NCBI GenBank assembly: GCA_007134485.1
Contig: SLKT01000040.1
Coordinates: 16,696 to 80,695 of the forward strand
DNA length: 64,000 bases
From: Wenzhouxiangella sp.
GTDB taxonomy: Bacteria; Pseudomonadota; Gammaproteobacteria; Xanthomonadales; Wenzhouxiangellaceae
Direction of reading: 5' to 3'
How positions within the stretch are numbered: position 1 is the stretch's first letter; the number at the start of each line of letters is the position of its first letter. Positions 1 through 28,809 of the stretch are shown piece by piece. The notes beneath the pieces were generated by a model, which was not told the DNA's origin, did no database searches, and saw only the letters and a program-made list of their open reading frames with translations. A program made the translations under genes and the position numbers.

Positions 1-349
1 CGGACGAGGCAGACGCCAAGAGTCGCAGCAAGCCGTTCAGCACTTGCCGCCCCGATTGCTCATCGTTCACTTCCGGGGGAGAAGTCACCTCCCCCTGAGC
101 ATCCAGGCATTGCACGAACACATCCAGTCGCCCATCACTTTCATTGACCTCACGGATGACCGCCGTGAGATCGTCACTGCCCGCAATATCCGACATGGCG
201 CCAATGGAGGTGCGTTCCGTCGGCCGCACGCCATGCTCGCCGGTCAATCGAATCATCCAGACAGCGCAATCGAGTTTCGGCAAACGAGCCATCCACAGCT
301 CGGCCTGCTCGCTGTCCGATAGTTTCTTGATCAGTTCAGGTGTATCCAC
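1..349 (-). CDS. Partial CDS (runs off window): degenerate Ser/Thr protein kinase-like (pseudokinase) N-terminal region
   Basis: Not in ORF track. Manual translation from GTG at 349, 16 nt after the PAAR stop, is open to base 1: MDTPELIKKLSDSEQAELWMARLPKLDCAVWMIRLTGEHGVRPTERTSIGAMSDIAGSDDLTAVIREVNESDGRLDVFVQCLDAQGEVTSPPEVNDEQSGRQVLNGLLRLLASASS. Spacing matches Hanks subdomains I-V, but the Gly loop and VAIK Lys are lost. Confidence 0.6.
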   Translation of the reverse strand, partial: MDTPELIKKLSDSEQAELWMARLPKLDCAVWMIRLTGEHGVRPTERTSIGAMSDIAGSDDLTAVIREVNESDGRLDVFVQCLDAQGEVTSPPEVNDEQSGRQVLNGLLRLLASASS

Positions 350-365
350 AAATCGAACCTGCCAC

Positions 366-761
366 TCAGGGCGCCAGGACCAGGACCTTGAACTGGCTTG
401 GGGCCAGTGAGGCGCCGGGCGCATTGGTGCTGTTTTGCATCGACATGCTGGTGACTCGGGTGGCCGGCATGCCACCGGTCAGGGTCGTGAAGGACCCGGT
501 CAGGTGCCGTGACGGGCCCATGACCATCCCCGATGCCACGCCCGTGCCTACCCCGGCATTGTCACCGTTGGTAAAAGGCGTTGTTGTTCCAAGGTTATGT
601 GCCGGCATGCCGGCAACCAGGATATTGGTCACATTCGGAATGGCGGTCATCCCGGTGGCTATATTGGGATAGGGCACAGGCACCGGACCAACCGGACTCG
701 GTGTGTTGCAGACATCCGGAAAGGCCATGTTCATGCCGCCCATTTGTGTATTGGAAAACAT
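366..761 (-). CDS. DUF4150 PAAR-like spike-tip protein, stand-alone (TagD-5-like)
   Basis: FPDVCNTP...PVPVPYPN motif typical of DUF4150; 131 aa with no toxin extension; downstream of vgrG. Confidence 0.9.
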   Translation of the reverse strand: MFSNTQMGGMNMAFPDVCNTPSPVGPVPVPYPNIATGMTAIPNVTNILVAGMPAHNLGTTTPFTNGDNAGVGTGVASGMVMGPSRHLTGSFTTLTGGMPATRVTSMSMQNSTNAPGASLAPSQFKVLVLAP

Positions 762-764
762 CGC

Positions 765-1427
765 TCACCCCAACTGGATCTGATCGGCGTCGATCTTGCC
801 GAGCTCGTCGGCCTTGGCAAGAATATGCTCACCCCGCAAGGTCATCGCATTGCGTGCCCTGAGGTCCAGCTGTCCTGCCTGGACTCGGTCCATTTGTTCG
901 GTCTTGCGGATAAAGGTCCGGGCCGACTGATGATGCTGGTCAGCGACGGTGTCCATTCTCCGGGTCACCGTTCGAATACGCTCAAAGGTTGTTTCCAACC
1001 GCTCGCCTACCCAACTTGCCGCCTTGCAGAAATGCTCGGCCAGCGCCGTGGAAAAACGGATCACCGGTCCATGAATCGAGACCAGGCGGTCACTGCCCAG
1101 ATCGAGTGCTTCTGCAGCACGCACCGACAGGCTGCCCGACGGACATTCAATCTCGACATCACCGGCGAAGCGCAATTTCAGATCACGACTATCATCACGC
1201 TCGAGGATGGCCAGAATCCAGCAGTCGGAACCGGCACAAAGTGCGCTGACACGGTCGCCCGGCTCGGGCGTCACCAGGCAGCTGTGCGCCACCGTGGCCA
1301 GACGAACAACGCCATCGTCCGACTGAATCTGCCACAGGCCGCCCTGTTCACCATGCACCACCCCAAGACTGTACTCGGGACTTGCCACCGGGTCATCAGG
1401 GATCATTGGCTTCTGCTCTACTTTCAT
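765..1427 (-). CDS. DUF3540 family T6SS accessory protein (TagC-5-like)
   Basis: SCLVTPEPGDRV...WILAILER motif, C-terminal KIDADQIQLG; lies between pentapeptide and DUF4150 genes. Confidence 0.85.
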   Translation of the reverse strand: MKVEQKPMIPDDPVASPEYSLGVVHGEQGGLWQIQSDDGVVRLATVAHSCLVTPEPGDRVSALCAGSDCWILAILERDDSRDLKLRFAGDVEIECPSGSLSVRAAEALDLGSDRLVSIHGPVIRFSTALAEHFCKAASWVGERLETTFERIRTVTRRMDTVADQHHQSARTFIRKTEQMDRVQAGQLDLRARNAMTLRGEHILAKADELGKIDADQIQLG

Positions 1428-1437
1428 CTTCTACTCC

Positions 1438-2565
1438 TCAGTCAATTGCAGGAGACCATTGTTCAGCCTCGAGTCTTTTTTGATCGGTGGAAAGCGCCAA
1501 CTTGCGATCCGGAAAATGTGCATCATCTTCGATCGCCTGGTGAAAGTTGGCCCGAAACAACGAACAATCCTGGAAATCTGCCGAACTCAAGTTGGCATGT
1601 GAGAAATCGGCATAGGTCAATTCCATACCACTGAAATCAGCCCCTTGGCACTGGGCCGCTTCCCAGCTTGACTGCCAGGCGGAACTGCCGGTCAGCTTGG
1701 CGCCATCAAGCCTTGCCTCATTGAACAAGCACTGAGTCAGATCGCAACCGGAAAGCTCCGCCTCTTCAAGGAATGCCTTGATGAAGATTGCATTGGCGGC
1801 AACCGAGCCGGCCAGCCTTGCGCCGGACAGCTTGGCCTCGGTGAAATTGCACTGAACAAGTTGGCAATCACGCAGATCGGCGCCAGTCAGGTCGGCATTG
1901 GCCAGTTGTGAGCGTGACAGATCCATGCCATGCAGATCCATGCCTGACAGGTCGGTGCTGATCAGTGTGCACATATCAAATCGAGCGCCGCGTAGATTTG
2001 AGCCCCGCAACGAGCCCTCACATACGATCAATCGTTCCAGGTTGGTTTCCTGAAAGTCCAGGCGAATGAGCTTGCTACTGGCAAACACCGTGTAGCTGAT
2101 GAGCGCATTGCGAAAGTCGGTATCGTGGATGGTGCAGGAAATAAAGCTGGTTCTTTCGAGGGCGGCCGAGCGCAGATCAACTTGATTGAGAACTGACTCG
2201 ACGAAATGAGCATCCCCGAATGAGCATTCAGACATATCCACTGTCTGCAACACGCAATCGTGGAATGTACATTCCTGGCCATTGACAGCATGAAGGCTTG
2301 AACCGGACAGATCACACTCTGTCAGCAATGTTTCCTTAAGCTTGGCATTGGCCAAATTGGCGTCAATCAGCTTGCAATCCGTCATCACCGCCTCTTCCAG
2401 GTTGGCCGATGACAAGTTGCTATTGCTGAAATCAACATCGGAAAAAATGATGCCAGACAAATCAGCATTACTCAGATTGACTCCGACAATCCGTGCATCT
2501 TCGACCACTCCGTGATTTCTCACGTGACGTCGGATGGCTCCCCGCGAACTCAACTCAATGGTCAT
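1438..2565 (-). CDS. Pentapeptide-repeat protein (TagB-5-like)
   Basis: Almost all of the 375 aa are A(D/N)LXX-type repeats (NLSNADLSG, ANLANAKLKE, ADLTGADLRD, ADFSHANLSSADF). Confidence 0.92.
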   Translation of the reverse strand: MTIELSSRGAIRRHVRNHGVVEDARIVGVNLSNADLSGIIFSDVDFSNSNLSSANLEEAVMTDCKLIDANLANAKLKETLLTECDLSGSSLHAVNGQECTFHDCVLQTVDMSECSFGDAHFVESVLNQVDLRSAALERTSFISCTIHDTDFRNALISYTVFASSKLIRLDFQETNLERLIVCEGSLRGSNLRGARFDMCTLISTDLSGMDLHGMDLSRSQLANADLTGADLRDCQLVQCNFTEAKLSGARLAGSVAANAIFIKAFLEEAELSGCDLTQCLFNEARLDGAKLTGSSAWQSSWEAAQCQGADFSGMELTYADFSHANLSSADFQDCSLFRANFHQAIEDDAHFPDRKLALSTDQKRLEAEQWSPAID

Positions 2566-5209
2566 GGTGTTGCTTCCGATCTTGCAGGCGGGGATAGATA
2601 TTCATGCGCCTGGTCAAGGCTTCGTCGATACGGGTTTTCTTGTCAGCGATAATCCGGGCCAGGTCTGCTGCGTAAAGGTTGGCCTTGTCAAAGGTCGCAC
2701 TACGCAGGTCAGCCCGGTGAAAGACACTTGAGATCCAATTCGCTCCGGTCATATCGCATTCTCTGAGATCCGCCCGCACCCATCTTGACTCGGGACCATG
2801 GGATTGACGGAATGAACTCCCGCCCGCGTTTACCTCACTGAAGTCGGCCTGGTCGAGTCGCGAATGACTGAAGTCGCAATTGAGCAGATTGGCACCAAAC
2901 CAGTTGGTTCGGCCAAGATTGGCCGACTGAAAACTGCTTTGAGAAAAGTCACAACCCTTGACAAACACGACCTTATCCAGGCTGGCATGGCCGAAATCTG
3001 AACTGCGCCCTGTACAGGCCACGAATACCACCTTGCCCAGAGTTGCCCCCTGCCAATTTGTATTGCCCAGCGAAGACTTGAGGAAAATCGATTTCTGGAA
3101 TTCCACCTCGGAAAAATTACAGCTATCCATGTTCATTTCGAGAAAAACGAGGTCCTGGCCCTTGACGGCGGAAAAATCGCACCGGCGGATTCGAGCCTGC
3201 AAGAACACCTGCATACCCGAAATGACAGCTCCACTGAAGTCCGAATCACCGATTCGGGCCGATTCCAGCACGGTATCTTCAAGACTGGCCTGCCTTGCCG
3301 TGACCTGGATCAGACTGGCCTTGCCCAGATTGGCCTCATCCAGACAGGCGCCGTCCAGGTTGGTTTCGCGCAGATGCGAGTGGGCCAGTACCGCACCCGA
3401 AAGATTTGCGCCACTAAGGTTGGTTCGGGTGAGCACAGCCGATTCCAGGAATACCCCGGACAAATCCCGACCGGCCAGATTCAGCCCGCTGAGATCAACA
3501 CCGCAGAAATCCATCCCGGAAACACTTTGCCCATTGGCCAGCATGGCGATCAGTAACTTGACCTGTTCACTGGAACTGCCCAGGGCTTTGACCGGCTTCT
3601 GGTGATGCGCGCTGATTCGATACAGGTCCTTCAAGCCATGCTCGGATTCCTTCCACTGCTCGAACACGGCCGGATCATCAAGCATGGCTTCCAGCTCAGC
3701 CGGATCGGCCCCCAACTCCCGCACCCGCCTGATTTGTTCTTGCAAGTCCTCCAACATGGCTTGTGCGTTGAATTTTGGCGGCCCCAGCCCCTGATCATCA
3801 TCCTTGAGCACTTCATCCATCGAGAAATCCAGTTCAGGGCGCTTGTCCAGTTCCTGACTGATCCGGTCTCGCGCTTCATCCCGACGCTGGTAACCCTCGA
3901 GCATGGAGTCATACATCAACTGGTACTTCTCATTCAGATAAGCCTCGAGATCATCCGGATCCGGAAGATCCGACGACTGATCGAGGTCCGGCGTTGCATG
4001 CTCGGGAAATTCGTGACCCAGTTCCCGCGTCTTTTCACGGGCCTCCTTTTGCGCGGAATCCAGTCTGTCTTCAATATTGCGAACCAGTGCAGACTGATCT
4101 TCATCACCAAGCTGGTCAAGTACATCCTGGACCACGGATCTGGCCAGACCGGTGGGCATCAGGGGCTCATCGTTGATCATGTCCAGCATGTTCTCCCCCG
4201 GGTCCAGCCGACGATTCATGACCGCATGATAATGATCAAGTGTTCGTGCCTGTTCCGGAAATTCAGCGCCCAGTATCAGCGTTTCGACATCATGGGCATC
4301 ATACTCGGCCACACCGATGCTGCCCTGGTAAACAAGAACCAACAGCTCAACCTCGGGCAGAAACCACAACGTCGTCAATACGGTCTTGGCCTCATGCAAG
4401 ACCTGCTCCTGCTTGAGGCGATAAAAACAACGGGTCCTCAATTGCGGCACCTCGCCCTCCAGCACGGGTTGGTCAGCGTGCATGCCCTGGATCCGAAATC
4501 TTTCACCGCCGTTCCAAAACCCATCGGACCATTGATCGGGTGAGGCCATATTGAAATATTCCCAGCCGATATCATCCGGAAAGCCCGGGAACCGAGTTTT
4601 CAACCAGGCATCATCATGTGTACCCGCCAGCGTCCTGCGTTGCGGCCAAGATACATCAAGCGGCCCCAGTCCGGCCGGATCAGGACGCTGGCTCTTGAGG
4701 CCAACCGGTTTTTTCGGGTCTTCAATATTGGGCAACGGCCAGCGCCCGGCATTCGGTCCCGCATCGATCTTGTGCATGCCCTTGCCCAATGGATTGCGCT
4801 CAAATCCTTCGCCGCCAAACGCGTATTGCCAGTCCATCGGCAAGACCTCGAACGGTTGCGGCTGGGTGATGCGATCACCTTCGAAATAACGATCGCCGAA
4901 AACTCTCAGCTCCTTGACATGCTCACCCACCTGAATCCTGAGCGGCATGGCCTTGATCGGCTTTCCGCCCGGTGCATGGGCATTTCCGACAACCAGAAAC
5001 TCGCCATGTTTTTTGGGGATGCCTGCATCCAGGATTCCATGCTCGCCCAGCTCCGGCAGGGCTTGCTGCCATAATTCGGCTTCCATTAACATCTCCAGGT
5101 CCCGCAGCAAGGGCACCGCAGCGATGATGGAAAAACCGAGATACGCCCGAGCGCCATACTCAAACGGACGCGTGACCACGCTCAACTGAAGGGGCTTAAC
5201 GATTCTCAT
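2555..5209 (-). CDS. DUF2169 adaptor/chaperone fused to C-terminal pentapeptide repeats (TagAB-5-like)
   Basis: N-terminal DUF2169 motifs (LDAGIPKKHGEFLVVG, ELRVFGDR, YAFGG, NPLGKG, DDAWLKTRFPGFPDD), acidic helical linker, about 300 aa of pentapeptide repeats; first gene after vgrG. Confidence 0.9.
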   Translation of the reverse strand: MRIVKPLQLSVVTRPFEYGARAYLGFSIIAAVPLLRDLEMLMEAELWQQALPELGEHGILDAGIPKKHGEFLVVGNAHAPGGKPIKAMPLRIQVGEHVKELRVFGDRYFEGDRITQPQPFEVLPMDWQYAFGGEGFERNPLGKGMHKIDAGPNAGRWPLPNIEDPKKPVGLKSQRPDPAGLGPLDVSWPQRRTLAGTHDDAWLKTRFPGFPDDIGWEYFNMASPDQWSDGFWNGGERFRIQGMHADQPVLEGEVPQLRTRCFYRLKQEQVLHEAKTVLTTLWFLPEVELLVLVYQGSIGVAEYDAHDVETLILGAEFPEQARTLDHYHAVMNRRLDPGENMLDMINDEPLMPTGLARSVVQDVLDQLGDEDQSALVRNIEDRLDSAQKEAREKTRELGHEFPEHATPDLDQSSDLPDPDDLEAYLNEKYQLMYDSMLEGYQRRDEARDRISQELDKRPELDFSMDEVLKDDDQGLGPPKFNAQAMLEDLQEQIRRVRELGADPAELEAMLDDPAVFEQWKESEHGLKDLYRISAHHQKPVKALGSSSEQVKLLIAMLANGQSVSGMDFCGVDLSGLNLAGRDLSGVFLESAVLTRTNLSGANLSGAVLAHSHLRETNLDGACLDEANLGKASLIQVTARQASLEDTVLESARIGDSDFSGAVISGMQVFLQARIRRCDFSAVKGQDLVFLEMNMDSCNFSEVEFQKSIFLKSSLGNTNWQGATLGKVVFVACTGRSSDFGHASLDKVVFVKGCDFSQSSFQSANLGRTNWFGANLLNCDFSHSRLDQADFSEVNAGGSSFRQSHGPESRWVRADLRECDMTGANWISSVFHRADLRSATFDKANLYAADLARIIADKKTRIDEALTRRMNIYPRLQDRKQHHDH

Positions 5210-5262: not shown

Positions 5263-7518
5263 TCACAAGTCGATTTTCAGGTCGCTCAGATCGACTTCGA
5301 AGTCTCCGATACACAAATCCACTCCCTTCTTCGCCAGGTTGGTCAGACGCTTCTGCAAGGCAATCTTTTCTTTCATCATTTTGATGTGGGACATCTTGAG
5401 TGTGAACAGGGTCTTCGACGCATCCATGCCGGTCACGCCCATATTTATAGCTTTGAGATCCACATTAAGGCCTGCGATTACGGAGACCGCCGTGGTCTTG
5501 AAATCGGATGTATTGCCCGCGACTCCAATGGTGCTGCCCTGCAGATTGATCTGGAATTCCCCGAAGTGCGTATGGTGCGGGACGGTCAGGGTGATCTGTC
5601 CGCCTGATATGAGGTCAATGTCCTTCTTGGACTCGATCTTGATTTTCCCATCAACATCCTTTTTCCATTTGCCGCCTACCTCCTCAATCTGATCACCACC
5701 GACATCACGCTCCTCATCACCCTTGACTTCAAATTCTCGATCACCCTCGACAGTCACCGTCTGCTTGCCCTCGACAGTCGCTGTCTGTTCGCCCTTGACG
5801 GTATCGGTATCGTCTCCTTCTACCGTGCGCGTATCATCACCTTCTATGGTTTGAGTTCGATCCTTCTTGACATCGATTGTTTCGTCACCTTCCACCAGTA
5901 CCGAGCGATCATTCTCGACGCTGACATCCATATCCCTTTCAGCATGAATGGCGATCCTTTCTTCGCCCTTCTTGTCCTCGAAACGAATCTCGTTGAAATT
6001 ACCCGTCCCGCCTTCCGGCGTGCTACGGGTCTTTACGCCGGACTGCGTGGCATCCTCGAATGGAGGCCGATTTTCACCGTTGTAGACCGCCCCGGTAATG
6101 ATCGGTCGATCAGGGTTGCCATCCAGGAACTCAACGATCACTTCATGGCCAATGCGCGGAAAAAAGAACGCACCCCATCCCTTTCCGGCCCAGGCCTGCG
6201 ATACGCGCACCCGGCAGGAACTGTTCTCGTCATGTTTTCCTTCCCGGTCCCAATGAAACTGGACCTTGACCCGACCATGGTCATCAACATCGATTTCCTT
6301 GCCTTCGGGGCCTACCACGACTGCAGTCTGCGGACCATGAACGATGGGATGCGGTGTTTTCCGCTTTGGCTGGTAAGTAACACTGGACGGAACGGCCGTC
6401 AGGGTGACACGATAGTCGACCTCCTCGTCGACCCAGGTGCGCGTGTGGTCGTATTCAGGTAAAGTCAGTTCATGGCGAGTTGTACTGACCAGATATTCTC
6501 GCTCCTGATCAGAGCGATCGTGGTGGTCAAGCTTGAACTGATAACCCGGCACCAGGGTTCGAATTCGCCCTTGCCCAGCCAGCACCTCGAATCCAGACTG
6601 CATTTCCTCTTTTCGTATCGTGGCTGCACGAACCAGGGGGCCGGTACTGATTTCATCACTTCGATGTTGAGGGAAGCGCGCCGGATAGTCGTAATGTTCC
6701 AGGGAAACCGAACCGGGGCCGGCAAACTCCTCCGATTCCTGAACCTTTGACTTGGCCTCCATGAGATTGGGCTGCATGTAGTTGTAGTCACGCAACTCCA
6801 CGGACTCGATCCTGATCTCCCGCCGCATGCGCCAATCATGGATATGCAGCCCAGGGCCTCCCTCGGCATCCGGATCCCAGACCACCGTATCCATTTCATC
6901 CGAAACGTCCGAATGAGCGACGGATAATGGATCATGAACAGTCGAGTCATCGGCCAGAATCAGGACATGTTTTCCATCTTCGTGACGGAAGAAGTAATGA
7001 ATCCCCTCTTCTTCCATCAAACGCGAGACGAAGTCGAAATCACTCTCACGGTACTGGACGCAGTAATCGCGAACCGGGTAATCATCAACACCCAGTTCAT
7101 CCAGAAAATCACTGAGACCATGATCCTCGAAAACTTGCTTGATGATTTCCGGTGTCGCGCGATTCTGGAAAATCCGGCTGTTGCGTGTCCGGGTCAAAAA
7201 CCAGAGCCAGGGTCGCAAGCGAACATGGTAGACGGCCAGGTCGGAGGCACGGAAACCGACAAATGACATACTTGTGATGTTGCCACAGAACCAGCGCTTG
7301 CCACCTTTGACAGCTTCGAGCTCAACCTGGGCATGGCGGCCCAGCAATTGATCAAGGTCGATATCTGTCCGACTACTCTTGTCTCCCAAAACAACCAACT
7401 CAAACTCGAAAAGCTCGCTGATCCCCTCGTTCCCTTCAAAGCGCTGCAGGACGAGAAAATCCTCATCCTGTCCATCGATCAGAAATTTCGCCTGGCGGTT
7501 GCCCTGTATCTGAACCAT
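5263..7518 (-). CDS. vgrG: T6SS spike protein VgrG with gp5-type repeats and short C-terminal extension
   Basis: YCVQYRESDFDFVSRLMEEEGI, GPQTAVVVGP, GRVKVQFHWDR, PRIGHEVIVEFLDGNPDRP, NEIRFEDKKGEE; 8-aa VEGD repeats. Confidence 0.97.
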   Translation of the reverse strand: MVQIQGNRQAKFLIDGQDEDFLVLQRFEGNEGISELFEFELVVLGDKSSRTDIDLDQLLGRHAQVELEAVKGGKRWFCGNITSMSFVGFRASDLAVYHVRLRPWLWFLTRTRNSRIFQNRATPEIIKQVFEDHGLSDFLDELGVDDYPVRDYCVQYRESDFDFVSRLMEEEGIHYFFRHEDGKHVLILADDSTVHDPLSVAHSDVSDEMDTVVWDPDAEGGPGLHIHDWRMRREIRIESVELRDYNYMQPNLMEAKSKVQESEEFAGPGSVSLEHYDYPARFPQHRSDEISTGPLVRAATIRKEEMQSGFEVLAGQGRIRTLVPGYQFKLDHHDRSDQEREYLVSTTRHELTLPEYDHTRTWVDEEVDYRVTLTAVPSSVTYQPKRKTPHPIVHGPQTAVVVGPEGKEIDVDDHGRVKVQFHWDREGKHDENSSCRVRVSQAWAGKGWGAFFFPRIGHEVIVEFLDGNPDRPIITGAVYNGENRPPFEDATQSGVKTRSTPEGGTGNFNEIRFEDKKGEERIAIHAERDMDVSVENDRSVLVEGDETIDVKKDRTQTIEGDDTRTVEGDDTDTVKGEQTATVEGKQTVTVEGDREFEVKGDEERDVGGDQIEEVGGKWKKDVDGKIKIESKKDIDLISGGQITLTVPHHTHFGEFQINLQGSTIGVAGNTSDFKTTAVSVIAGLNVDLKAINMGVTGMDASKTLFTLKMSHIKMMKEKIALQKRLTNLAKKGVDLCIGDFEVDLSDLKIDL

Positions 7519-10285: not shown

Positions 10286-10286
10286 G

Positions 10287-18383: not shown

Positions 18384-18467
18384 AGATGGTGATCGGGCGC
18401 ACATTCCATTCAAACCATCCTGGCCGGGCCCTTGAAGGCGCCGGAATACGAAAACATTTTCCTTACG

Positions 18468-18496
18468 CTGAAATAAAACGTAAACCGGGCTAGAAT
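18468..18496 (+). promoter_or_regulatory. Candidate sigma70 promoter for the divergent 88-aa ORF
   Basis: CTGAAA-N17-TAGAAT in an AT-rich stretch; overlapped by inverted repeat TTACG-N11-CGTAA (18463-18483). Confidence 0.45.
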
Positions 18497-18524
18497 CCTG
18501 TCATCTAAATGCGAGTCTGATCGA

Positions 18525-20332: not shown

Positions 20333-23300
20333 TCAGAGAGTGTTGGGGCACTGGAACTGCTGCACCAGGTCCTCGGTCAGGGGGTTGACCAGCGCATGCG
20401 TTCGAAGCTCGTAGGTGGCCTTGCGCCCGCCCATGGAGAATTCGACGATCTGGGTTTCCGGCGTGCTGCCGGCCTCGCGCTGGAACTGATCCAGAAAGCG
20501 CAGCAACGCCCATGGACCATCCCGGGTCATGCTGGAGCGGCCACTTTCGGCCGGGGGGTCGAATTGCAGTCGGACCGTGGAGTCTCCCTGATCCGGCCAG
20601 CGCACCGTCGTCCAGCGCACCGGTCCATGAAAATATTCGACCGATTGTTCGCCAATGCGCAAGCTGAGTCGATTGATCGACTGGTCCATGTCCACCGGCC
20701 GCAGATCCAGTGGGATGATCGGTCGCTGACCACCCTCCGGGAAGAACGCGTCGCGAATACGACGAGCCCGTTCGAACTGGCGAATGCTGCTTGATGACAG
20801 GGACGGCGAACCCGGTTGTGGCGGACGCCAGCTCCACGGCGAGCTGCTGGTATCAGCATACTGCCTCAGATTCTCCTCGAAAAATTCGTCGATCAGTCCA
20901 TCATGACCGAACAGGCGACCAAATTCCTGCAGCGACAACTCTTCGGATGCTCCCGACCGAAACGGATAGCGGCGGCCGGTCAGTTCACGGCACGAGGCGA
21001 GTACCTGATTGGTCCATTCCCGCTGCACTTGGGAGCGTGTGTCGTCAGCCGTCAACTGGACAATGCGGGTTGAAAACAGGTTGAACCAGCCGGATACCGG
21101 CTCCGGCAAATCGAGGGCTTCCTCGCGCAGGTTGCGGGTCAGGTCCGCGGTCGTACCGAGTCCGGTGGCCACGCCCCGGGCGGAATCCTCGAAGTTGATG
21201 GCCAGTTGGCGAAGTGTTCCCAATGGCTGGTTGATCGGCCAGTCATCCTGCTGATCGGGATCACCGGCGAGACGAACCAGGGACCGGAAATGTGATTCAA
21301 CCGCGGTTTCCGGATCGGTCGAATCGGAGCCTTCTCCAGCCGCACCGGCCAGGCGACGCGCATCCGAGGACATTCGACGGGTGGCCTGACGCTGCACGAT
21401 CCGGCTGCCGGCTTCACCCAGGGCCGACAAACGCCCCCCGTTTTCCTCGTCGTCATCGCCGCGGGTCAGACTGACTTCATCAGCCACCGCACCCACCAGC
21501 CGGCGTATCGGTGAACGCCGCTCGGAGGCGGCTCGCAGGACACGAATGGCATCCTGGCTGCTGCCGAATCCGACGATTTCCAGATCCTCCAGCAAGCTTT
21601 CCCAGTGCATCACGAACTCGCGGAAATACAACTCCAGGGCTTCCTCCATCAAGCGGTTCAGCTCTCGCATGTCATCGAGTCGACCGCGCTCTTCATCACC
21701 CAGCACCCAGGTTTCATCCAGTAATTCGCGTGCCGTGGAACGCAGGTTCTGCATGACGATCTTGTGATAACCGTCATAGGTATACAGGGGCGGAATGCCC
21801 TCGTCGAGGGAACGACCGCTGGAGCGCTGGAACACCTGGTCGGCCAGTGATCCGGCCTGCTCGGAGACCTTGAAAGGCAGCACCGACCGGGTAGCCTCGG
21901 CATCGAATTCCAGGCGTTGCAGCACCCATCGCGACATCGGGATGGAGCGCAGCACGTCGCGCGCATCGGCAATCAGATGCTCATCCAGTCCGTAGTCGAC
22001 CGGCACATCGAGTGTTTCGGCCAATGCGGTGACATGCATGCGAAGATCCTCGAGCTCATGACTGGTCAGTCCGCGCGGCGGGAACTCATCGAGATCAATC
22101 TGGTACCAGATGTCGATCATCTCCGGCTCATAGCGCGACGGTCGCTCCAACATCAGGTATGTACGCAAGGTCTCGTAGAGGGTCTCCTCGGCATCATGAC
22201 TCTGGCTCAGTCGTTCCTCGAGACGATTCACCAATTGCGGAAGGAGCAGTTTCTCCAGCAGCCGCTCGTACGTGCGCCGCGCCTCACGCCCCATTCGATC
22301 CCCCTGGTACAAACCCCACCCGGCCTGGCGAGGCGCTCGTTCATCACGCTCGGCATGTCCATGCGGCAACACGCGGGTCTGGTTGAGGATGAAGATCACT
22401 TCATTGATATCGGCGGGTCGCTCATCGATGGCGCGCAGGTTCAGACGCAACTCATCGGACGCCTCGTCCATGCCCTCAATCAGGCCCTGGTTGTGCATGT
22501 AGCTGACCGACCACAGGCCAACCGCGCTGACCAGGACCACAACACTGAACACCGTCACCGCCATCTGGATGATCCTGCGACGCCGCTCACCGCGTGCATC
22601 GACCCCGGCCAGGGCCGCCTCGGGAAAGACGACATCGTTGAGCAGCCGGGTCAGGAAATAGCTGCGCCCCTGCCCGCCGGCCTGGGCCGCGCCGGTCGCG
22701 CTGATCCCGAATGATCGCGACAGCGCGCCCATCACACGGTCGATCGGCGTGCCCTCCTGGGTGGCGCTGGTGAAGTAGCAGCCGCGCAGCAGCAGGTCTT
22801 GCTCGTAGCGACTGGGCGAAAAGACCTCTTCGAGGAACTGTTCGAGTATCGGGTGCAGGGCGCCGAACTGTTGCGGAAACGAGTACAAGGCCTGGCGTCG
22901 CTGCCCCGAACGCTCATGCTGCAGCTTGTCGATCACCTGGTCCCCAAGACGCTTGCCCAGGCTCTTGAGCTCGTCGGGCAATTGCTGGATGGCGCGACCC
23001 TTTTCCGAGTCCTCGACATCAAAGGTTACCCCCCAGACCTGTTCACGCTCACGCAGGCCGAGATCATCGAAGAATTCGTTGAATCCGGCCAGCAGGTCGC
23101 ACTTGGTCAGGATGACATAGACCGGGAATCGCACCCCCAGTTCGCTTTGCAACTCCTGCAGCCGGCTGCGGATCGCCTGGGCATGATTGCGCAGTTCGGC
23201 TTCGCTGAACGTGAGCAGATCCGACACGCTGATGGCCACCAGGGCGCCGTTGATCGGCTGGCGCTTGCGGTAACGCTTGAGTAGCCCCAAAAACCCCTTC

Positions 23301-23887
23301 CAGGCGCCGGCATCGCGATTTCGGTCACTGTCCTGGGTAGTGTAGCGTCCGGCCGTATCGATCAACACGGCATCATTGGTGAACCACCAGTCACAATGCC
23401 GGGTGCCGCCCACGCCCTTGAGCGCCTCGACCCCGAATCGCTCGGCCAGGGGAAACTTCAGCCCTGAATTGACCAGCGCGGTGGTCTTTCCCGCTCCCGG
23501 GGGGCCGATGATCAGGTACCACGGAATCTGGTAGAGGCGCTTGCGCTCGCCCGACCCACCCAGACGCGCCTTCTTGAGCACATCCATGGCCTCCTGAAGG
23601 CGCTCCTGCAACAGTTCGACCTCCTCGGCCGAAGCATCCTCGTCGGGCGTAGACTCGACCACCTGCTGGGCCAATTCCTCGTTGTACCGTCGCCCGACCA
23701 TCCATGCCCGGGTCTTCTTGACGACCCACCAGACAAACAGCAGGATGATGATGGCCAGGCGCCAGTAGGGATGCTCGAGCGGCACCCAGTCGCCGATTGC
23801 AATCAGGGGACCGACGAACCAGATGACCAGCGAAATGGCCGTCAGGGCGAGCAACGGAATCAGGATATGGCGCACGAAAGCAATCAT
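20333..23887 (-). CDS. tssM: T6SS membrane complex subunit TssM (IcmF)
   Basis: N-terminal TM helices, PWYLIIGPPGAGKTT, CDWWFT, LIDTAGRY, TSATQEG, RSYFL. Confidence 0.97.
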   Translation of the reverse strand: MIAFVRHILIPLLALTAISLVIWFVGPLIAIGDWVPLEHPYWRLAIIILLFVWWVVKKTRAWMVGRRYNEELAQQVVESTPDEDASAEEVELLQERLQEAMDVLKKARLGGSGERKRLYQIPWYLIIGPPGAGKTTALVNSGLKFPLAERFGVEALKGVGGTRHCDWWFTNDAVLIDTAGRYTTQDSDRNRDAGAWKGFLGLLKRYRKRQPINGALVAISVSDLLTFSEAELRNHAQAIRSRLQELQSELGVRFPVYVILTKCDLLAGFNEFFDDLGLREREQVWGVTFDVEDSEKGRAIQQLPDELKSLGKRLGDQVIDKLQHERSGQRRQALYSFPQQFGALHPILEQFLEEVFSPSRYEQDLLLRGCYFTSATQEGTPIDRVMGALSRSFGISATGAAQAGGQGRSYFLTRLLNDVVFPEAALAGVDARGERRRRIIQMAVTVFSVVVLVSAVGLWSVSYMHNQGLIEGMDEASDELRLNLRAIDERPADINEVIFILNQTRVLPHGHAERDERAPRQAGWGLYQGDRMGREARRTYERLLEKLLLPQLVNRLEERLSQSHDAEETLYETLRTYLMLERPSRYEPEMIDIWYQIDLDEFPPRGLTSHELEDLRMHVTALAETLDVPVDYGLDEHLIADARDVLRSIPMSRWVLQRLEFDAEATRSVLPFKVSEQAGSLADQVFQRSSGRSLDEGIPPLYTYDGYHKIVMQNLRSTARELLDETWVLGDEERGRLDDMRELNRLMEEALELYFREFVMHWESLLEDLEIVGFGSSQDAIRVLRAASERRSPIRRLVGAVADEVSLTRGDDDEENGGRLSALGEAGSRIVQRQATRRMSSDARRLAGAAGEGSDSTDPETAVESHFRSLVRLAGDPDQQDDWPINQPLGTLRQLAINFEDSARGVATGLGTTADLTRNLREEALDLPEPVSGWFNLFSTRIVQLTADDTRSQVQREWTNQVLASCRELTGRRYPFRSGASEELSLQEFGRLFGHDGLIDEFFEENLRQYADTSSSPWSWRPPQPGSPSLSSSSIRQFERARRIRDAFFPEGGQRPIIPLDLRPVDMDQSINRLSLRIGEQSVEYFHGPVRWTTVRWPDQGDSTVRLQFDPPAESGRSSMTRDGPWALLRFLDQFQREAGSTPETQIVEFSMGGRKATYELRTHALVNPLTEDLVQQFQCPNTL

Positions 23888-25302: not shown

Positions 25303-26637
25303 TCACTGTCTGATCGCCCACAACTCCATTTCCAGGTCAGGGTACTCACCGGAAACGTGAATGGCAATGCCACCGCTGGTCTTGAGATCCTTCCAGTACT
25401 GGCTGGACCGATCCAGCTCGAAATAATTGAATCCGGCGTGATACGGAATCTGGCGGGGCGCGACCGGCAGGGGCGATACACCAATGCCGCGCACCTGCTT
25501 GTTGACCAGCTCACGAATCACCTCGACCGAACCGATCTTGATCTGGCGCGGAAACTGACTGCGCAATTTGTCACCTGAAAGTGAGGCCTTGGCCGCCAGA
25601 ACGAATATCGCGTCATCGACCAGCGATTTGTCCGGAATTCGGCCGACGCGAATTCCGTACTTTTTCTCGACAAGAGAAATGTTGACCGCGTTCTGCTCGA
25701 TCACCATGCTCAACGCATTTCTCAGGTCCAGCATGACCGGATGAAAGCTCTCCTGCAGCGCCGAATGACGATATTCAGGATAGGCGCCGGCCATCTTCTT
25801 CTGACTGGAGAATGTTGCCAGCTCCCCGGCCAGCGACAGCATCGCCTCATAGAGACGCTCCGGATGCAGTTGATTGCGCTGGCTTAGATGACTGAACAGC
25901 GGGATGGCCCGGTTGACCAGCATCAGCAACAAAAAGTCTGCGATTTCGGCCACACCGCCCCGTCCCGACTGGGACACGCGCGCCGCCAGCGCTTCTGCAC
26001 GATGATTGAGCAGCCCGAGAATCTCCTTGGCATAGCCGACCAGATTCGGATGCCCCTGGCAATTGCCCATGGTCGGGACGAAATCCGGATCGGTGATCAA
26101 GGATCCGTCGGACCGCCGCTCAACGACCCGGGCCAGCGGTATGCAGGCATACTCGCTGCGATCATCGTCCTCGACGAGAAAGCGAGCATTGATCCTGCCG
26201 ATTTCGATATCAGCCACCACGGTGGAGCCGGCCACGGAATCGCGCGTTTCCATCAGGTCGGAGCGAAAACGGGCCAATTGCTCCTCGCCATCGGGTCGGT
26301 CAAACTCCACCCGCCCGGATTTCATGATGGGCACCGCGAGATAAACCACGCTGTTTTTCAGTTGTTCCGGCACATCAAGCGGGGCCGGTGCCTCGTCTTC
26401 GGACGGAAAACTGAATGGCGTACCATCGGGAAATACACCCGTGCCGACCTCCAGGGCGATCTTGCCTACCTTGAGCGCGGCTTCATCGAGCTTGACCTGG
26501 TCGAAGCCCCAAGCATCCGGACGCGCCAGGCTGTCGCGGGTGTCAACGAACCGCTGAACATAACGATCGAACTGCTGGAAGTGTTGCGGTCGGAGGAACA
26601 TGCCTTCCGACCAGATCACCTTGCTTTTCCAGGACAT
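25303..26637 (-). CDS. tssK: T6SS baseplate subunit TssK
   Basis: KVIWSEGMFLRPQHFQQ, LHPERLY, LPVAPRQIPYHAG. Confidence 0.97.
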   Translation of the reverse strand: MSWKSKVIWSEGMFLRPQHFQQFDRYVQRFVDTRDSLARPDAWGFDQVKLDEAALKVGKIALEVGTGVFPDGTPFSFPSEDEAPAPLDVPEQLKNSVVYLAVPIMKSGRVEFDRPDGEEQLARFRSDLMETRDSVAGSTVVADIEIGRINARFLVEDDDRSEYACIPLARVVERRSDGSLITDPDFVPTMGNCQGHPNLVGYAKEILGLLNHRAEALAARVSQSGRGGVAEIADFLLLMLVNRAIPLFSHLSQRNQLHPERLYEAMLSLAGELATFSSQKKMAGAYPEYRHSALQESFHPVMLDLRNALSMVIEQNAVNISLVEKKYGIRVGRIPDKSLVDDAIFVLAAKASLSGDKLRSQFPRQIKIGSVEVIRELVNKQVRGIGVSPLPVAPRQIPYHAGFNYFELDRSSQYWKDLKTSGGIAIHVSGEYPDLEMELWAIRQ

Positions 26638-26744
26638 CAGTTCACCTGTGCGTCAATTGGACCGGGACAGTCACGCTCACCGGGCGTGACCATCAAAACC
26701 GGCCTCAGTATACATAACCGAATCGCGATGACCGACCGCCACGC

Positions 26745-27227
26745 TCAACGACGTTGGATGGAGACCTGGTTGCGCTCGACTCGCACGTCCAGGTTGTTCT
26801 CCTGGTTCGAATCCAGCACCTCGACCGCCCGCCAGCGGGCATGTTCGATATCGCGGTAGGCAGCCACCACGGCAACATAACCACTGCCGGACTCCGCCGT
26901 GAAACTCAAGCGCTCTTGCTGACCCGGCTCGAGCTGGTATTCCCAGCGAGACACCCGGTCAGCACCCAGCACCGCCGAGTCCTGCTCCAGCAGGGTAAAG
27001 AAGTCGGCGCCCTCGAAGACCCCGGCCGAGCGCAGTTCATAGACTCTGACCAGCACCGGTGACGGGCGGTCGTTGCGATCGGGATTGACATCACTGCTGG
27101 CCGATAGGTCGATACTGGCCGTGGTCGGTGGAGGGGTTGTATCGCGAGCGCAACCGGCCAGCACCATCAACGTGGCGACCACCAGCAGTATTGATAAACG
27201 ATTGATGCGGCTAAGTCGTGAGTTCAT
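26745..27227 (-). CDS. tssJ: T6SS outer-membrane lipoprotein TssJ
   Basis: Start moved to ATG 27227 (AAGGA immediately upstream); lipobox LAGC; VNPDRNDRPSPVLVRVYEL, VAVVAAYRD. Confidence 0.93.
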   Translation of the reverse strand: MNSRLSRINRLSILLVVATLMVLAGCARDTTPPPTTASIDLSASSDVNPDRNDRPSPVLVRVYELRSAGVFEGADFFTLLEQDSAVLGADRVSRWEYQLEPGQQERLSFTAESGSGYVAVVAAYRDIEHARWRAVEVLDSNQENNLDVRVERNQVSIQRR

Positions 27228-27300
27228 ATCCTTTTCCCTGTGTAGCGAAAGCCAAAACAGACTTCCGCCATGTGTAGTGTCATGATGCACTGATCGACGA

Positions 27301-28809
27301 TCACTCGCCATCACCCTGACTTCGACGACCTGCGATCTGACGCTCGATCTCGCTGGAAGAACGCTCATAGGCCTCGGCGAATTCACGCACGAAGATCTTC
27401 TTGGCATCGTCTCGCAAGTTGGCCGAGATCTCCTCGTAATGGCTGGTGAACAGGTTCCAGCATTTTGCTTCTCTGATCAAGGGGGCTGAAGCCGAGATCG
27501 GGGAAATCTTCTTCAGCTTGCTTTCGAGTTGCTCCGGGTTGAACTGGCGAATGACCGATTCGATAGCGCCCTGGACGGCGGCCAGAATGGCCATCTGATG
27601 AGCACGCAAGTCATTGAGCGCCTGCTCGAACGATTCGGCGCCACTGATGAATCCGGGCACATCGCGCTCGACAAATACTCTGCGCATGGCCTCCTCGGTG
27701 GTTGGCGAGAACTTGAGCGGGTTGTTGCGGGTGCTCGAGATGCGCGTCTGATCGATGCGGAATTCGTTCTTGATCTCGGCCCGGCTGGCCAGCAACTGCA
27801 TCAATCCCTCGCCGACCATGTGAACGACCTGGCCCAATTGCTCGGCAAAATCCTCCGGATCAATGTCATCGGCGGCATCCTCGATGCCCAATTCCTGCAG
27901 AATCCTGAGCATCACATCGCCGCGCCCGACCGAACCGCTCGCGGCCGGCTGCGGCTTGGGCCGTGGCGGCGGCTTGGCGGAGCGCTCGGGCGGTGGCGTG
28001 GCCGGAGCGGACTGTTGCGACGCCGACTTTTCAGAATGATCGGTTCTGGATTCGGATGGTTTGTCAGCAGATGCCTGTGACGATGCGGCGGCGGGAGGCT
28101 CGAAAAACCCGGTCAGCAGTGCGTCCCACTCATCCGGAATCTCGTCATCGGATTCGCGACCGGCATCCGGAGCGGCGAAGAACTCGCGCTCCGGCGATTG
28201 CTGAAATTCGGCCGAATCGGATCGCGAGCCCGTTTCTTCCTCGCTTTCATCATCGAGATCCAGTCCGCCGTCATCGTCGCCGAAATGATCGGCATCGAAC
28301 TGCGGGCCCGTATCATCGTCCTGTCCGACCGACTCCTGGCCGGTCGTACCCGGCTGGCGGCCTTCGAGCAGATCATCGAATTCGTCACGCTCGGTATCGC
28401 TGTCCGGAACCTGTCCGCGCTCGGTATCGACCAGCAGACTGTCGAGCTCGGATAAATCGGCTCCATCGTTGATGGTGGCGCCAGGTCGGGCCTGTTCAAT
28501 TCGAACCCGGATCTGGAATTCACCGATGTACAGCAGATCACCATCGCCAAGACCTGCACTGCGCTGCTTGCCGATCAGACGGTCCGGATCGTTGTGGAAG
28601 GTGCCGTTGGTGCTCAAATCCTCAATGACAAAATCGTCACCCTCGCACATGATTCTGGCATGGCGGCCCGAGGTGTAAAACTTCGGGTCCGGCAAGACCC
28701 AGTCATTATCGGACGAACGTCCGAGTGTGCCCCCGTGTTCATCGAAGGTGACTTGACTGCCCTCCAGGGCGGGATCAGAACACTTTTCAACGGTCAGGGT
28801 GATTTGCAT
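27301..28809 (-). CDS. tagH: T6SS FHA-domain protein Fha/TagH
   Basis: FHA motifs (LGRSSDNDWVLPD, SGRHA, DLSTNGTF), long acidic/Pro linker, C-terminal NNPLKFS...DLRAHQMA. Confidence 0.93.
   Translation of the reverse strand: MQITLTVEKCSDPALEGSQVTFDEHGGTLGRSSDNDWVLPDPKFYTSGRHARIMCEGDDFVIEDLSTNGTFHNDPDRLIGKQRSAGLGDGDLLYIGEFQIRVRIEQARPGATINDGADLSELDSLLVDTERGQVPDSDTERDEFDDLLEGRQPGTTGQESVGQDDDTGPQFDADHFGDDDGGLDLDDESEEETGSRSDSAEFQQSPEREFFAAPDAGRESDDEIPDEWDALLTGFFEPPAAASSQASADKPSESRTDHSEKSASQQSAPATPPPERSAKPPPRPKPQPAASGSVGRGDVMLRILQELGIEDAADDIDPEDFAEQLGQVVHMVGEGLMQLLASRAEIKNEFRIDQTRISSTRNNPLKFSPTTEEAMRRVFVERDVPGFISGAESFEQALNDLRAHQMAILAAVQGAIESVIRQFNPEQLESKLKKISPISASAPLIREAKCWNLFTSHYEEISANLRDDAKKIFVREFAEAYERSSSEIERQIAGRRSQGDGE

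What the first reader, a model, noticed from the sequence alone, without database searches (positions are those of the whole stretch)
1..28809. Hybrid T6SS: H1-type regulated core joined to a Burkholderia T6SS-5-like pentapeptide/DUF3540/DUF4150 spike module
Seen: core order and accessories (fha, tagF, pppA, tagJ, TssL-OmpA) follow the P. aeruginosa H1-T6SS layout, while the four genes after vgrG are DUF2169+pentapeptide, pentapeptide, DUF3540 and DUF4150. Known: that four-gene set is the tagAB/B/C/D module of Burkholderia T6SS-5, where VgrG carries a large membrane-fusion domain. Here VgrG lacks such a domain and the PAAR is bare. Inference: the module is a general alternative spike-assembly machine used here for a different, unknown target such as predation or competition.
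Basis: partly seen in the sequence, partly recalled or inferred. Interest (0 to 1): 0.8.

Follow-up and report, generated by a model that had tools for sequence, protein, structure and literature searches.

The report
H1-type T6SS with Tvp spike chaperones
This is a complete bacterial type VI secretion "spear gun" whose tip is built with a helper gene set (Class III Tvp) characterised in Serratia in 2026.

Summary
Observation confirmed: 21 co-directional minus-strand genes (window 366-28809) form a full T6SS. Order: fha-tssJKLM-tagF-pppA, then tssABC-hcp-tagJ-tssEFG-clpV-vgrG, then DUF2169+pentapeptide, pentapeptide, DUF3540, and a bare 131-aa DUF4150/PIPY cap.

The "hybrid" reading fails by its own refutation test. 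The four genes are the Class III Tvp system (TvpAB/TvpB/TvpC/Paar1), shown in Serratia marcescens Db10 to chaperone VgrG-PAAR spike assembly (PMC13373197). A 2026 review lists PpkA, PppA, Fha, TagF and TagJ for Serratia's T6SS.

In my survey of 66 loci, the module adjoins H1-type cores in Wenzhouxiangella-like Gammaproteobacteria and several betaproteobacterial families. TssC and TvpAB trees give the same groups.

Extras, none experimentally tested:
- The cluster continues past the window start with an intact membrane Ser/Thr kinase and a periplasmic Sel1-caspase protein. The latter's close orthologs were found in four of the five other T6SS-positive congeners, plus one fragment elsewhere.
- vgrG-tvpAB-tvpB-tvpC is unusually divergent among congeners (31-52% identity against TssC 88-93%).
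- The genome has a second, orphan vgrG-Tvp set and no canonical PAAR.

This scan has already met the module in at least 28 other genomes. Verdict: new member of a known kind, low interest.

The parts
27301..28809 (-). fha (TagH): FHA + T6SS_FHA_C
   Evidence: Pfam, (179 and 49 bits)
26745..27407 (-). tssJ lipoprotein
   Evidence: Pfam T6SS-SciN
25303..26637 (-). tssK
   Evidence: Pfam T6SS_VasE 521 bits
23884..25245 (-). tssL with C-terminal OmpA peptidoglycan-binding domain
   Evidence: Pfam DotU + OmpA; TM-like segment near residue 246
20333..23887 (-). tssM
   Evidence: Pfam IcmF domains
19483..20313 (-). tagF
   Evidence: Pfam TagF_N; TIGR03373
18743..19486 (-). pppA-like PP2C phosphatase
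   Evidence: Pfam PP2C_2/PP2C
17266..18315 (-). tssA (TIGR03363 type, 349 aa)
   Evidence: Pfam ImpA_N; TIGR03363 227 bits
16690..17217 (-). tssB sheath small subunit
   Evidence: Pfam T6SS_VipA
15191..16687 (-). tssC sheath large subunit, H1 type
   Evidence: Pfam VipB + VipB_2; best PDB match 5n8n_B 807.6 bits, next best 501.8
14616..15101 (-). hcp (only copy in the genome)
   Evidence: Pfam; whole-genome search
13705..14553 (-). tagJ (ImpE/HsiE1)
   Evidence: Pfam ImpE; PDB HsiE1 4uqy 236.6 bits
13186..13701 (-). tssE
   Evidence: Pfam GPW_gp25
11288..13162 (-). tssF
   Evidence: Pfam 723.7 bits
10287..11324 (-). tssG
   Evidence: Pfam 309.9 bits
7529..10285 (-). clpV (tssH)
   Evidence: Pfam AAA_2, AAA_lid_9, ClpB_D2-small
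5263..7518 (-). vgrG, 751 aa, no effector domain; about 110 aa extend beyond the region that matches P. aeruginosa VgrG1
   Evidence: Pfam; PDB 4mtk 442 bits over residues 19-641; C-terminal sequence
2555..5209 (-). tvpAB (tagAB): DUF2169 + pentapeptide repeats, 884 aa
   Evidence: Pfam DUF2169 264.8 bits + Pentapeptide
1438..2565 (-). tvpB (tagB): pentapeptide-repeat protein, 375 aa
   Evidence: Pfam Pentapeptide 193 bits
765..1427 (-). tvpC (tagC): DUF3540, 220 aa
   Evidence: Pfam 161.6 bits; AF2 model with OB-fold at residues 18-76
366..761 (-). bare PAAR-like cap (tagD/Paar1; DUF4150/PIPY), 131 aa
   Evidence: Pfam PF13665 126 bits; PVPY motif at residues 28-31
1..349 (-). 5' part of a membrane Ser/Thr kinase gene that continues beyond the window (G000:C178:15143-17044); a Sel1/coiled-coil/caspase gene follows at C178:13338-14996
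   Evidence: Pfam Pkinase 157.6 bits and Peptidase_C14 + Sel1; sequence motifs and TM segment; conserved synteny

Best explanation
The window holds the single, complete H1-type (subtype i3-like) type VI secretion cluster of a Wenzhouxiangella-like gammaproteobacterium (a MAG of 3.35 Mb, 60% GC). Its VgrG spike is capped by a small DUF4150/PIPY protein with the help of a Class III Tvp chaperone set: TvpAB, TvpB and TvpC. The mechanism below is inferred by homology to Serratia marcescens Db10. TvpAB (its DUF2169 domain shields the hydrophobic cap) and TvpB first assemble with the cap on a trimer of TvpC, a VgrG mimic that lacks the gp27 hub. VgrG then replaces TvpC. The pentapeptide beta-helices occupy the baseplate cavity that an effector domain would otherwise fill, and they stay in the cell when the sheath fires. 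Firing is probably gated post-translationally by Fha, the PP2C phosphatase and TagF. The kinase input would come not from a PpkA gene beside pppA but from a membrane Ser/Thr kinase encoded directly behind the cap gene. The module is native to this type of cluster, not a graft from a Burkholderia T6SS-5-like system.
For: All domain calls hold. The core is H1-type. TssC scores 807.6 bits against the P. aeruginosa H1 sheath 5n8n_B, with the next best structure at 501.8. TagJ matches HsiE1 at 236.6 bits. VgrG is closest to P. aeruginosa VgrG1. TssA matches TIGR03363. The same four-gene set has been characterised as the Class III Tvp system, with a pre-complex model. DUF2169 is a chaperone of DUF4150/PIPY domains, and synteny type C accounts for about 37% of DUF2169 genes. 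A review table lists TagE, F, G, H and J for Serratia, and TagAB, B, C and D for Burkholderia T6SS-3, -4 and -5. In the survey of 66 loci the module lies beside tagF, fha, pppA or a kinase in 16. H1-type TssC (70-75% identical to the window's) lies within about 12 kb of the module in Pusillimonas, Pollutimonas, Alcaligenes, Aquabacterium and Paracandidimonas. TssC and TvpAB trees give the same major groups. The TvpC model has an N-terminal OB-fold. The kinase follows the cap gene in nine loci (L017, L018, L019, L022, L024, L025, G040, G003 and this one), and in G040 and two Wenzhouxiangella MAGs it lies directly upstream of fha.
Against: Nothing was tested experimentally in this organism. The monomer AF2 model of TvpC does not show the trimeric beta-prism (pLDDT 78, pTM 0.48). 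The paper describes Tvp-served VgrGs as 'alternative' spikes beside PAAR-served ones, whereas both VgrGs here use Class III sets. No effector or immunity gene was identified in or next to either set. The kinase differs from PpkA: it has about 230 extra N-terminal residues, no vWA domain, and a short TPR-like periplasmic tail. Orthology to PpkA is therefore not shown. The trees were 'quick' IQ-TREE runs with some long branches.
Confidence: 0.85

Rival explanations
1. True hybrid: a spike module from a Burkholderia T6SS-5-like (non-H1) system was grafted by horizontal transfer onto an H1-type core.
For: GC3 of vgrG, tvpAB and tvpB (0.585-0.631) lies at about the 5-10th percentile of long ORFs in the genome (mean 0.71, sd 0.06), while the flanking core genes are at 0.65-0.75. 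There is an identity cliff at the clpV/vgrG and tvpC/cap boundaries against congeners.
Against: In the TvpAB tree, the in-cluster copies of the genus form one clade (SH-aLRT 97). A branch with support 95 separates modules linked to H1-type cores from those linked to other core types, mirroring the TssC tree. The combination recurs in Serratia, Pantoea and several betaproteobacterial families. Even the P. aeruginosa H1 cluster carries a DUF2169/DUF4150 (Class II) module behind vgrG1b.
Confidence: 0.05
2. The pentapeptide-repeat proteins are the secreted cargo (DNA-mimic, Qnr/MfpA-like or PipB2-like effectors), not chaperones.
For: NCBIfam gives sub-threshold similarity to Qnr, MfpA and PipB2 pentapeptide families. 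No other effector is visible in the cluster.
Against: All those hits are far below the curated cut-offs and reflect only the repeat. The Serratia authors report never having detected TvpAB or TvpB as secreted, and both are required for assembly. No immunity gene is adjacent. DUF2169 fusion and strict linkage to DUF4150 point to chaperoning.
Confidence: 0.05
3. An add-on to the main reading, not exclusive of it. The vgrG-tvpAB-tvpB-tvpC block is a diversifying or exchangeable cassette. Either VgrG itself acts on the target, as proposed for Serratia VgrG1, or the two spike sets in one cell must stay orthogonal, which would drive rapid co-divergence of VgrG, TvpC and the pentapeptide domains while the cap stays conserved.
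For: Within the genus, TssC is 88-93% and ClpV 75-82% identical. VgrG (39-45%), TvpAB (31-50%), TvpB (34-49%) and TvpC (26-52%) are much lower, while the cap is 63-75%. The rank order is incongruent: G003 is nearest in the core and flanks but farthest in the cassette. At comparable TssC identity, other lineages keep TvpAB at 47-74%. Divergence is greatest in the VgrG C-terminal extension and in the pentapeptide part of TvpAB. The genome carries two complete sets.
Against: TvpAB identity falls steeply with TssC identity in all lineages, so much of the effect may be a gene-specific rate. There are only six genomes, all MAGs. No dN/dS or breakpoint analysis was done. No immunity gene like Serratia vai1 lies behind vgrG.
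Confidence: 0.3

Closest known systems
Class III Tvp system of Serratia marcescens Db10 (VgrG1-TvpAB-TvpB-TvpC-Paar1; Monlezun, Earl & Coulthurst, EMBO J 2026, PMC13373197)
   Same: Same five protein families in the same order behind vgrG. The cap is small and effector-less. VgrG is 700-800 aa without a toxin domain. The module sits inside a T6SS cluster for which a review lists Fha, PppA, TagF, TagJ and a Ser/Thr kinase.
   Different: No vai1-like immunity gene or extra ORF lies between vgrG and tvpAB (53-nt gap). The module is at the 3' end of the cluster, behind clpV-vgrG. The genome's other VgrG also uses a Class III set rather than PAAR-Rhs proteins. No canonical PAAR was found in the 94.6%-complete genome.
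Pseudomonas aeruginosa H1-T6SS (PA0070-PA0099)
   Same: Same order in both halves: fha-tssJ-tssK-tssL-tssM-tagF-pppA and tssA-tssB-tssC-hcp-tagJ-tssE-tssF-tssG-clpV-vgrG. TssC, TagJ and VgrG have their best solved-structure matches in H1 proteins. TssL carries a peptidoglycan-binding domain.
   Different: The two halves are in tandem on one strand rather than divergent. No ppkA lies beside pppA, and no tagQRST is in the window. The kinase is encoded behind the cap gene and has a different architecture. H1 uses a Class II Tvp set (DUF6484, DUF2169, TvpD) with the Tse7 effector, not Class III.
Burkholderia pseudomallei/thailandensis T6SS-5 tagAB-5, tagB-5, tagC-5, tagD-5 (PMC6335564)
   Same: Same four accessory families in the same order directly behind vgrG. 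The overall order tssA...clpV-vgrG-tagAB-tagB-tagC-tagD-tssJKLM is colinear with the layout in congeners G040 and G002.
   Different: VgrG here lacks the VgrG-5 C-terminal domain. There is no virAG. Fha, TagF, PppA, TagJ and a kinase are present. The core sheath is H1-type.
PpkA with TagR (P. aeruginosa), the kinase and periplasmic activator of the threonine phosphorylation pathway
   Same: A bitopic Ser/Thr kinase with a cytoplasmic kinase domain and a periplasmic tail. It is encoded in the T6SS cluster together with Fha and a PP2C phosphatase. A signal-peptide-bearing periplasmic protein is encoded next to it.
   Different: There is no vWA domain and there are extra N-terminal residues. The periplasmic neighbour is a Sel1 + coiled-coil + caspase-like (C14) protein with an H377/C433 dyad, unrelated to TagR. 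The functional link rests only on synteny and co-occurrence.

Membership tests
Class III Tvp accessory system | TvpA: a DUF2169-containing protein | tested here: met
   PF09937 264.8 bits at residues 37-294 of the 884-aa protein
Class III Tvp accessory system | Pentapeptide-repeat extension on TvpA (TvpAB) plus a separate pentapeptide protein TvpB | tested here: met
   PF00805/PF13599 in residues ~560-860 of TvpAB and throughout the 375-aa TvpB
Class III Tvp accessory system | TvpC of the DUF3540 family (not DUF6484) | tested here: met
   PF12059 161.6 bits, profile positions 2-199 of 199
Class III Tvp accessory system | TvpC fold: OB-fold plus beta-prism, a VgrG mimic without a gp27 domain | tested here: inconclusive
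   The AF2 monomer (34-sequence alignment, pLDDT 78) gives a confident OB-fold at residues 18-76 and a long helix at 131-183. Foldseek finds IF1/RsgA OB-folds, with phage P2 gpV only at rank 29. A trimeric prism cannot appear in a monomer model.
Class III Tvp accessory system | Small DUF4150/PIPY cap without effector domain, carrying the P(I/V)P(Y/F) motif | tested here: met
   PF13665 126 bits; 131 aa; PVPY at residues 28-31
Class III Tvp accessory system | Genes directly downstream of a long (700-800 aa) vgrG without a toxin domain | tested here: met
   VgrG is 751 aa. The order is vgrG-tvpAB-tvpB-tvpC-cap with gaps or overlaps of 53 nt or less. Beta-prism length was not measured.
Class III Tvp accessory system | TvpC pre-complex replaced by VgrG; genes required for T6SS activity | not testable with these tools
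   Needs pull-downs and deletion mutants
H1-type (i3-like) T6SS with threonine phosphorylation pathway | Sheath TssB/TssC of the H1 lineage | tested here: met
   TssC scores 807.6 bits to 5n8n_B, against 501.8 (9n4v), about 400 (V. cholerae) and 387 (M. xanthus). It falls in a 100-supported clade of 20 H1-type sequences.
H1-type (i3-like) T6SS with threonine phosphorylation pathway | TagJ/HsiE1 accessory protein | tested here: met
   PF07024 154 bits; PDB HsiE1 4uqy 236.6 bits
H1-type (i3-like) T6SS with threonine phosphorylation pathway | Fha, PppA (PP2C) and TagF encoded with tssJKLM | tested here: met
   order fha-tssJ-tssK-tssL-tssM-tagF-pppA
H1-type (i3-like) T6SS with threonine phosphorylation pathway | PpkA kinase (N-terminal kinase, TM, periplasmic vWA) next to pppA | tested here: not met
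   No kinase lies beside pppA. A different-architecture Ser/Thr kinase lies behind the cap gene: Pkinase at residues 277-514 of the ORF, a TM-like segment near 542-562, no vWA.
H1-type (i3-like) T6SS with threonine phosphorylation pathway | TagQRST sensor module | not tested
   None is recognisable in the cluster. The rest of the genome was not searched for them.
Burkholderia T6SS-5 | VgrG-5 with a large C-terminal domain | tested here: not met
   VgrG has no domain beyond Gp5_trimer_C, only about 110 aa of extension
Burkholderia T6SS-5 | virAG in the cluster; no fha, tagF, pppA or tagJ | tested here: not met
   fha, tagF, pppA and tagJ are present, and no two-component genes are in the cluster.

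The most novel reading that the evidence does not exclude
In this Wenzhouxiangella-like lineage a single H1-type T6SS fires two spikes, each built by its own Class III Tvp set, with no canonical PAAR. One set is native and in the cluster. The other is an orphan island whose TvpAB groups with modules of non-H1 systems. The vgrG-tvpAB-tvpB-tvpC block would then be a diversifying, exchangeable cassette, with VgrG itself as the weapon or with set orthogonality as the selective force. The usual PpkA/TagQRST input would be replaced by a new pair: a membrane kinase behind the cap gene and a periplasmic Sel1-caspase-like protease.
Probability: 0.25. Interest if true: 0.5.

Novelty: new member of a known kind. 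Interest (0 to 1): 0.25.

Why it matters
The main claim does not open a new question. The module's role as a spike-assembly chaperone set, and its presence in H1-like, Fha/PpkA-regulated systems, were published in 2025-2026, and this scan has already met it in at least 28 genomes.

The locus is still useful as a natural test case for that model:
- A genome whose only two VgrGs both depend on Class III Tvp sets, with no canonical PAAR, argues that Tvp spikes need not be "alternative" spikes.
- The sharp divergence of vgrG, tvpAB, tvpB and tvpC, against a conserved cap and core, suggests which partners co-evolve.
- The kinase and periplasmic caspase-like pair is a candidate new input to the threonine-phosphorylation switch.

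Tried and rejected
- ORF 2-475(-) as the DUF4150 gene: no Pfam hit even at E=10. The real gene is 366-761(-).
- Small ORFs between pppA and tssA (18410-18715(-), 18501-18815(-), 18525-18791(+)): no Pfam or NCBIfam hit.
- TvpC against the VgrG C-terminal 251 aa by BLASTP: no significant similarity (E 0.81). The mimicry, if real, is structural only.
- The search for homologous proteins with TvpC returned only 7 hits because of its word-based limits. The survey therefore used a degenerate C-terminal pattern. That pattern is biased to this subfamily and did not recover Serratia or Burkholderia T6SS-5 loci, so no named reference of those is in my trees.
- Cross-phylum transfer of the in-cluster cassette looked possible from raw scores: Thermodesulfovibrionia TvpAB scores higher than the congener G003. 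I rejected it after the tree placed all in-cluster genus copies in one clade.
- Forcing the island-2 TvpAB into the genus clade: AU p = 0.019. The group was chosen after seeing the tree and the branch is long, so this is only suggestive.
- Literature search for T6SS in Wenzhouxiangella: nothing relevant.
- Canonical PAAR (PF05488) in the genome: no match. DUF4280 (PF14107): no match, but the controls were silent for that model, so this result is uninformative.

Full report
**Observation.** The region is a single co-directional (minus-strand) T6SS cluster.
- In transcription order the first half is fha, tssJ, tssK, tssL (DotU + OmpA), tssM, tagF and a PP2C phosphatase.
- The second half is tssA (TIGR03363), tssB, tssC, hcp, tagJ/ImpE, tssE, tssF, tssG, clpV and vgrG.
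- Behind vgrG come DUF2169 + pentapeptide (884 aa), pentapeptide (375 aa), DUF3540 (220 aa) and DUF4150 (131 aa).
- VgrG (751 aa) has no domain beyond Gp5_trimer_C. It matches P. aeruginosa VgrG1 over residues 19-641 and then has about 110 further residues.
- The DUF4150 protein is bare and carries the P(I/V)P(Y/F) motif as PVPY at residues 28-31.
- One correction: the DUF4150 gene is 366-761. The ORF that runs off the window start (2-475) has no Pfam hit in the window and belongs to the next gene.

**Beyond the window.** The window is G000:C178:16696-80695 in a 3.35-Mb, 206-contig, 60%-GC genome of 94.6% completeness. The gene directly behind the cap gene is an intact Ser/Thr kinase (Pkinase 157.6 bits).
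- It has a Gly-rich loop, a VALK lysine (K310), HADLKPQN, and DFG. One TM-like segment lies near residues 542-562, followed by a short C-terminal tail.
- A 552-aa protein follows. It has a signal-peptide-like N-terminus, Sel1 repeats, a coiled coil, and a caspase-like C14 domain that retains His377 and Cys433.

**What is known.** A full-text search found that the four-gene set has been worked out.
- Sachar et al. 2025 (PMC11883445) showed that DUF2169 proteins chaperone DUF4150 ("PIPY") tips. They defined "synteny type C" (DUF2169-pentapeptide, pentapeptide, DUF3540, DUF4150) as about 37% of DUF2169 genes in 4505 genomes.
- Monlezun, Earl and Coulthurst 2026 (PMC13373197) named the Serratia marcescens Db10 genes TvpAB, TvpB and TvpC. 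[quoted passage not shown]
- The same paper defined this as the Class III Tvp system. [quoted passage not shown]
- A 2026 review lists TagAB, TagB, TagC and TagD for Burkholderia T6SS-3, -4 and -5. It lists PpkA, PppA, Fha, TagF and TagJ for Serratia's T6SS.
The combination with an H1-style regulated core is the very system in which the module was characterised.

**Core type.**
- TssC scores 807.6 bits against the P. aeruginosa H1 sheath (5n8n_B), against 501.8 for the next structure and about 390-400 for the V. cholerae and M. xanthus sheaths.
- TagJ matches HsiE1.
- The gene order equals the two H1 operons, placed in tandem rather than divergently.
- The H1-like description is therefore right, except that no ppkA sits beside pppA.

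**Survey.** A pattern scan with a TvpC alignment returned 66 loci. I annotated them with the window's proteins as phmmer queries.
- The closest are MAGs named Gammaproteobacteria bacterium CSSed11_52R1 (75% TvpC identity) and Wenzhouxiangella or Wenzhouxiangellaceae (38-44%). One of these, L021, equals a genome the tool labels "same genus".
- The full module lies beside tagF, fha, pppA or a kinase in 16 loci.
- In Pusillimonas, Pollutimonas, Alcaligenes, Aquabacterium and Paracandidimonas, a TssC 70-73% identical to the window's lies within about 12 kb of the module. The Pusillimonas TssC scores 820 bits to 5n8n.
- The module also accompanies other sheath types: M. xanthus-like (5urw) in Myxococcaceae and Nitrospirae, and 9n4v-like in Thermodesulfovibrionia.

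**Trees.** A TssC tree (32 rows) has three groups.
- H1-type: the genus, Rhodocyclaceae/Zoogloeaceae with Aquabacterium and Caldimonas, and Alcaligenaceae (support 100).
- Thermodesulfovibrionia, Geobacter and Smithella.
- Myxococcota with Solimicrobium and Nitrospirae.

A TvpAB tree (32 rows) recovers the same units. Solimicrobium groups with Nitrospirae, and Thermodesulfovibrionia with Smithella. A branch with support 95 separates modules of H1-type clusters from the rest. The genus's in-cluster copies form one clade (support 97). Core and module are thus broadly congruent, and the finding's stated refutation condition is met.

**Fast-diverging spike block.** Per-gene identities against congeners show a cliff.

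| Comparison | Core and flanks | vgrG / tvpAB / tvpB / tvpC | Cap and downstream |
|---|---|---|---|
| G003 (same gene order) | tssB 89, tssC 90, tssK 79, tssF 74, clpV 82 | 40 / 31 / 34 / 31 | cap 66, kinase 70, caspase protein 72 |
| G040 | clpV 75 | 39 / 41 / 40 / 33 | cap 68 |
| G052 | clpV 82 | tvpAB 38, tvpB 41, tvpC 38 (vgrG not recovered) | cap 69 |

- G003 is closest in the core but farthest in the block.
- Divergence is strongest in the VgrG C-terminal extension and in the pentapeptide half of TvpAB.
- GC3 of vgrG, tvpAB and tvpB is 0.585-0.631, against a genome mean of 0.71.
- Across all lineages TvpAB identity falls quickly with TssC identity, but the genus pairs are the extreme: 30-37% at TssC 89-93%, against 47-74% elsewhere.
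- I read this as a fast-evolving, possibly exchanged cassette. It has not been tested by codon models.

**Second set, no PAAR.**
- The genome has one TssC, one Hcp, two VgrGs and two DUF4150 genes. It has no PF05488 PAAR.
- The second VgrG (contig C153) is followed by its own tvpAB, tvpB, DUF3540 and cap genes, and is flanked by uvrB and autotransporter/FG-GAP genes.
- Its TvpAB sits on a long branch among modules of non-H1 systems. Forcing it into the genus clade is disfavoured (AU p = 0.019, a post hoc test).
- Within the genus, the T6SS and TvpAB were found in 6 of 25 sampled species.

**Kinase and caspase-like neighbour.**
- The kinase follows the cap gene in nine loci. In G040, G002 and G031 it lies immediately upstream of fha. 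This fits a PpkA-like role.
- Close orthologs (60-86% identity) of the Sel1-caspase protein were found in G055, G044, G057 and G040, which are four of the five other T6SS-positive congeners. One fragment also occurs in a T6SS-negative genome, and G052 lacks it.
- More distant, longer homologs occur in other families without a T6SS.
- A periplasmic activator of the kinase, analogous to TagR, is an inference from synteny and co-occurrence only.

**Mechanism.**
- Shown here: family membership, order, linkage, core type, tree congruence, and an OB-fold in the TvpC model.
- Inferred by homology: the TvpC pre-complex, replacement by VgrG, cavity filling by the pentapeptide helices, retention of the chaperones in the cell, and gating by Fha, the phosphatase, TagF and the kinase.
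- Unknown: effectors and targets. No toxin or immunity pair was identified in or next to either set.

**Verdict.** This is a new member of a known kind, and other follow-ups in this scan reached the same family for at least 28 genomes.

Noticed in passing
G000:C178:4649-6088 (-), i.e. L001:4649-6088, about 7 kb beyond the end of the cluster: An orphan 479-aa ORF fuses a TssB/VipA-like N-terminus (PF05591, residues 20-106) to a TssC/VipB N-domain (PF05943, residues 182-454) and lacks the VipB_2 C-terminal domain. It lies among housekeeping genes (gltX, an SLT transglycosylase, a GntP-like permease). Homologs at 29-33% identity to TssC were seen only in the T6SS-positive congeners G055, G040, G052 and G044, and in G002.
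   Followed up: partly
G000:C153:15779-23528 (L006:7779-15529, +): A second, orphan vgrG-tvpAB-tvpB-DUF3540-DUF4150 island has low GC3 (0.52-0.68). Its 303-aa TvpC matches DUF3540 only in its C-terminal half. It is flanked by uvrB and by autotransporter and FG-GAP/PKD genes. The genome has no canonical PAAR, so both spikes appear to be Tvp-dependent.
   Followed up: partly
window 1-349 (-) and G000:C178:13338-17044: The ORF at the window start is the N-terminal extension of an intact membrane Ser/Thr kinase, not a pseudokinase. It is followed by a signal-peptide Sel1/coiled-coil/caspase-like protein that keeps its His/Cys dyad. Close orthologs of that protein were found in four of the five other T6SS-positive congeners, plus one fragment in a T6SS-negative genome.
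   Followed up: partly
L028, L040, L050, L053-L056, L058, L060-L062, L065, L066, L070, L072, L079 and the short contig L043 (Bordetella and Achromobacter), around locus coordinates 9800-10630: In these H1-like clusters (with tagJ) a separate DUF3540/TvpC-like ORF of about 220-270 aa sits between tssF and tssG, away from vgrG. This placement among baseplate genes is interesting given the reported TvpC-TssK interaction.
   Followed up: no
L024:13218-16587 (G003, same genus): In the congener G003, a 504-aa protein without clear domains and a 607-aa autotransporter are inserted between the kinase and the Sel1-caspase gene. An autotransporter gene also flanks the window genome's second Tvp island.
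   Followed up: no
window 18316-18742: The 427-bp gap between pppA and tssA is where H1 clusters carry ppkA. It holds only small ORFs with no family match (18410-18715(-), 18501-18815(-), 18525-18791(+)).
   Followed up: partly
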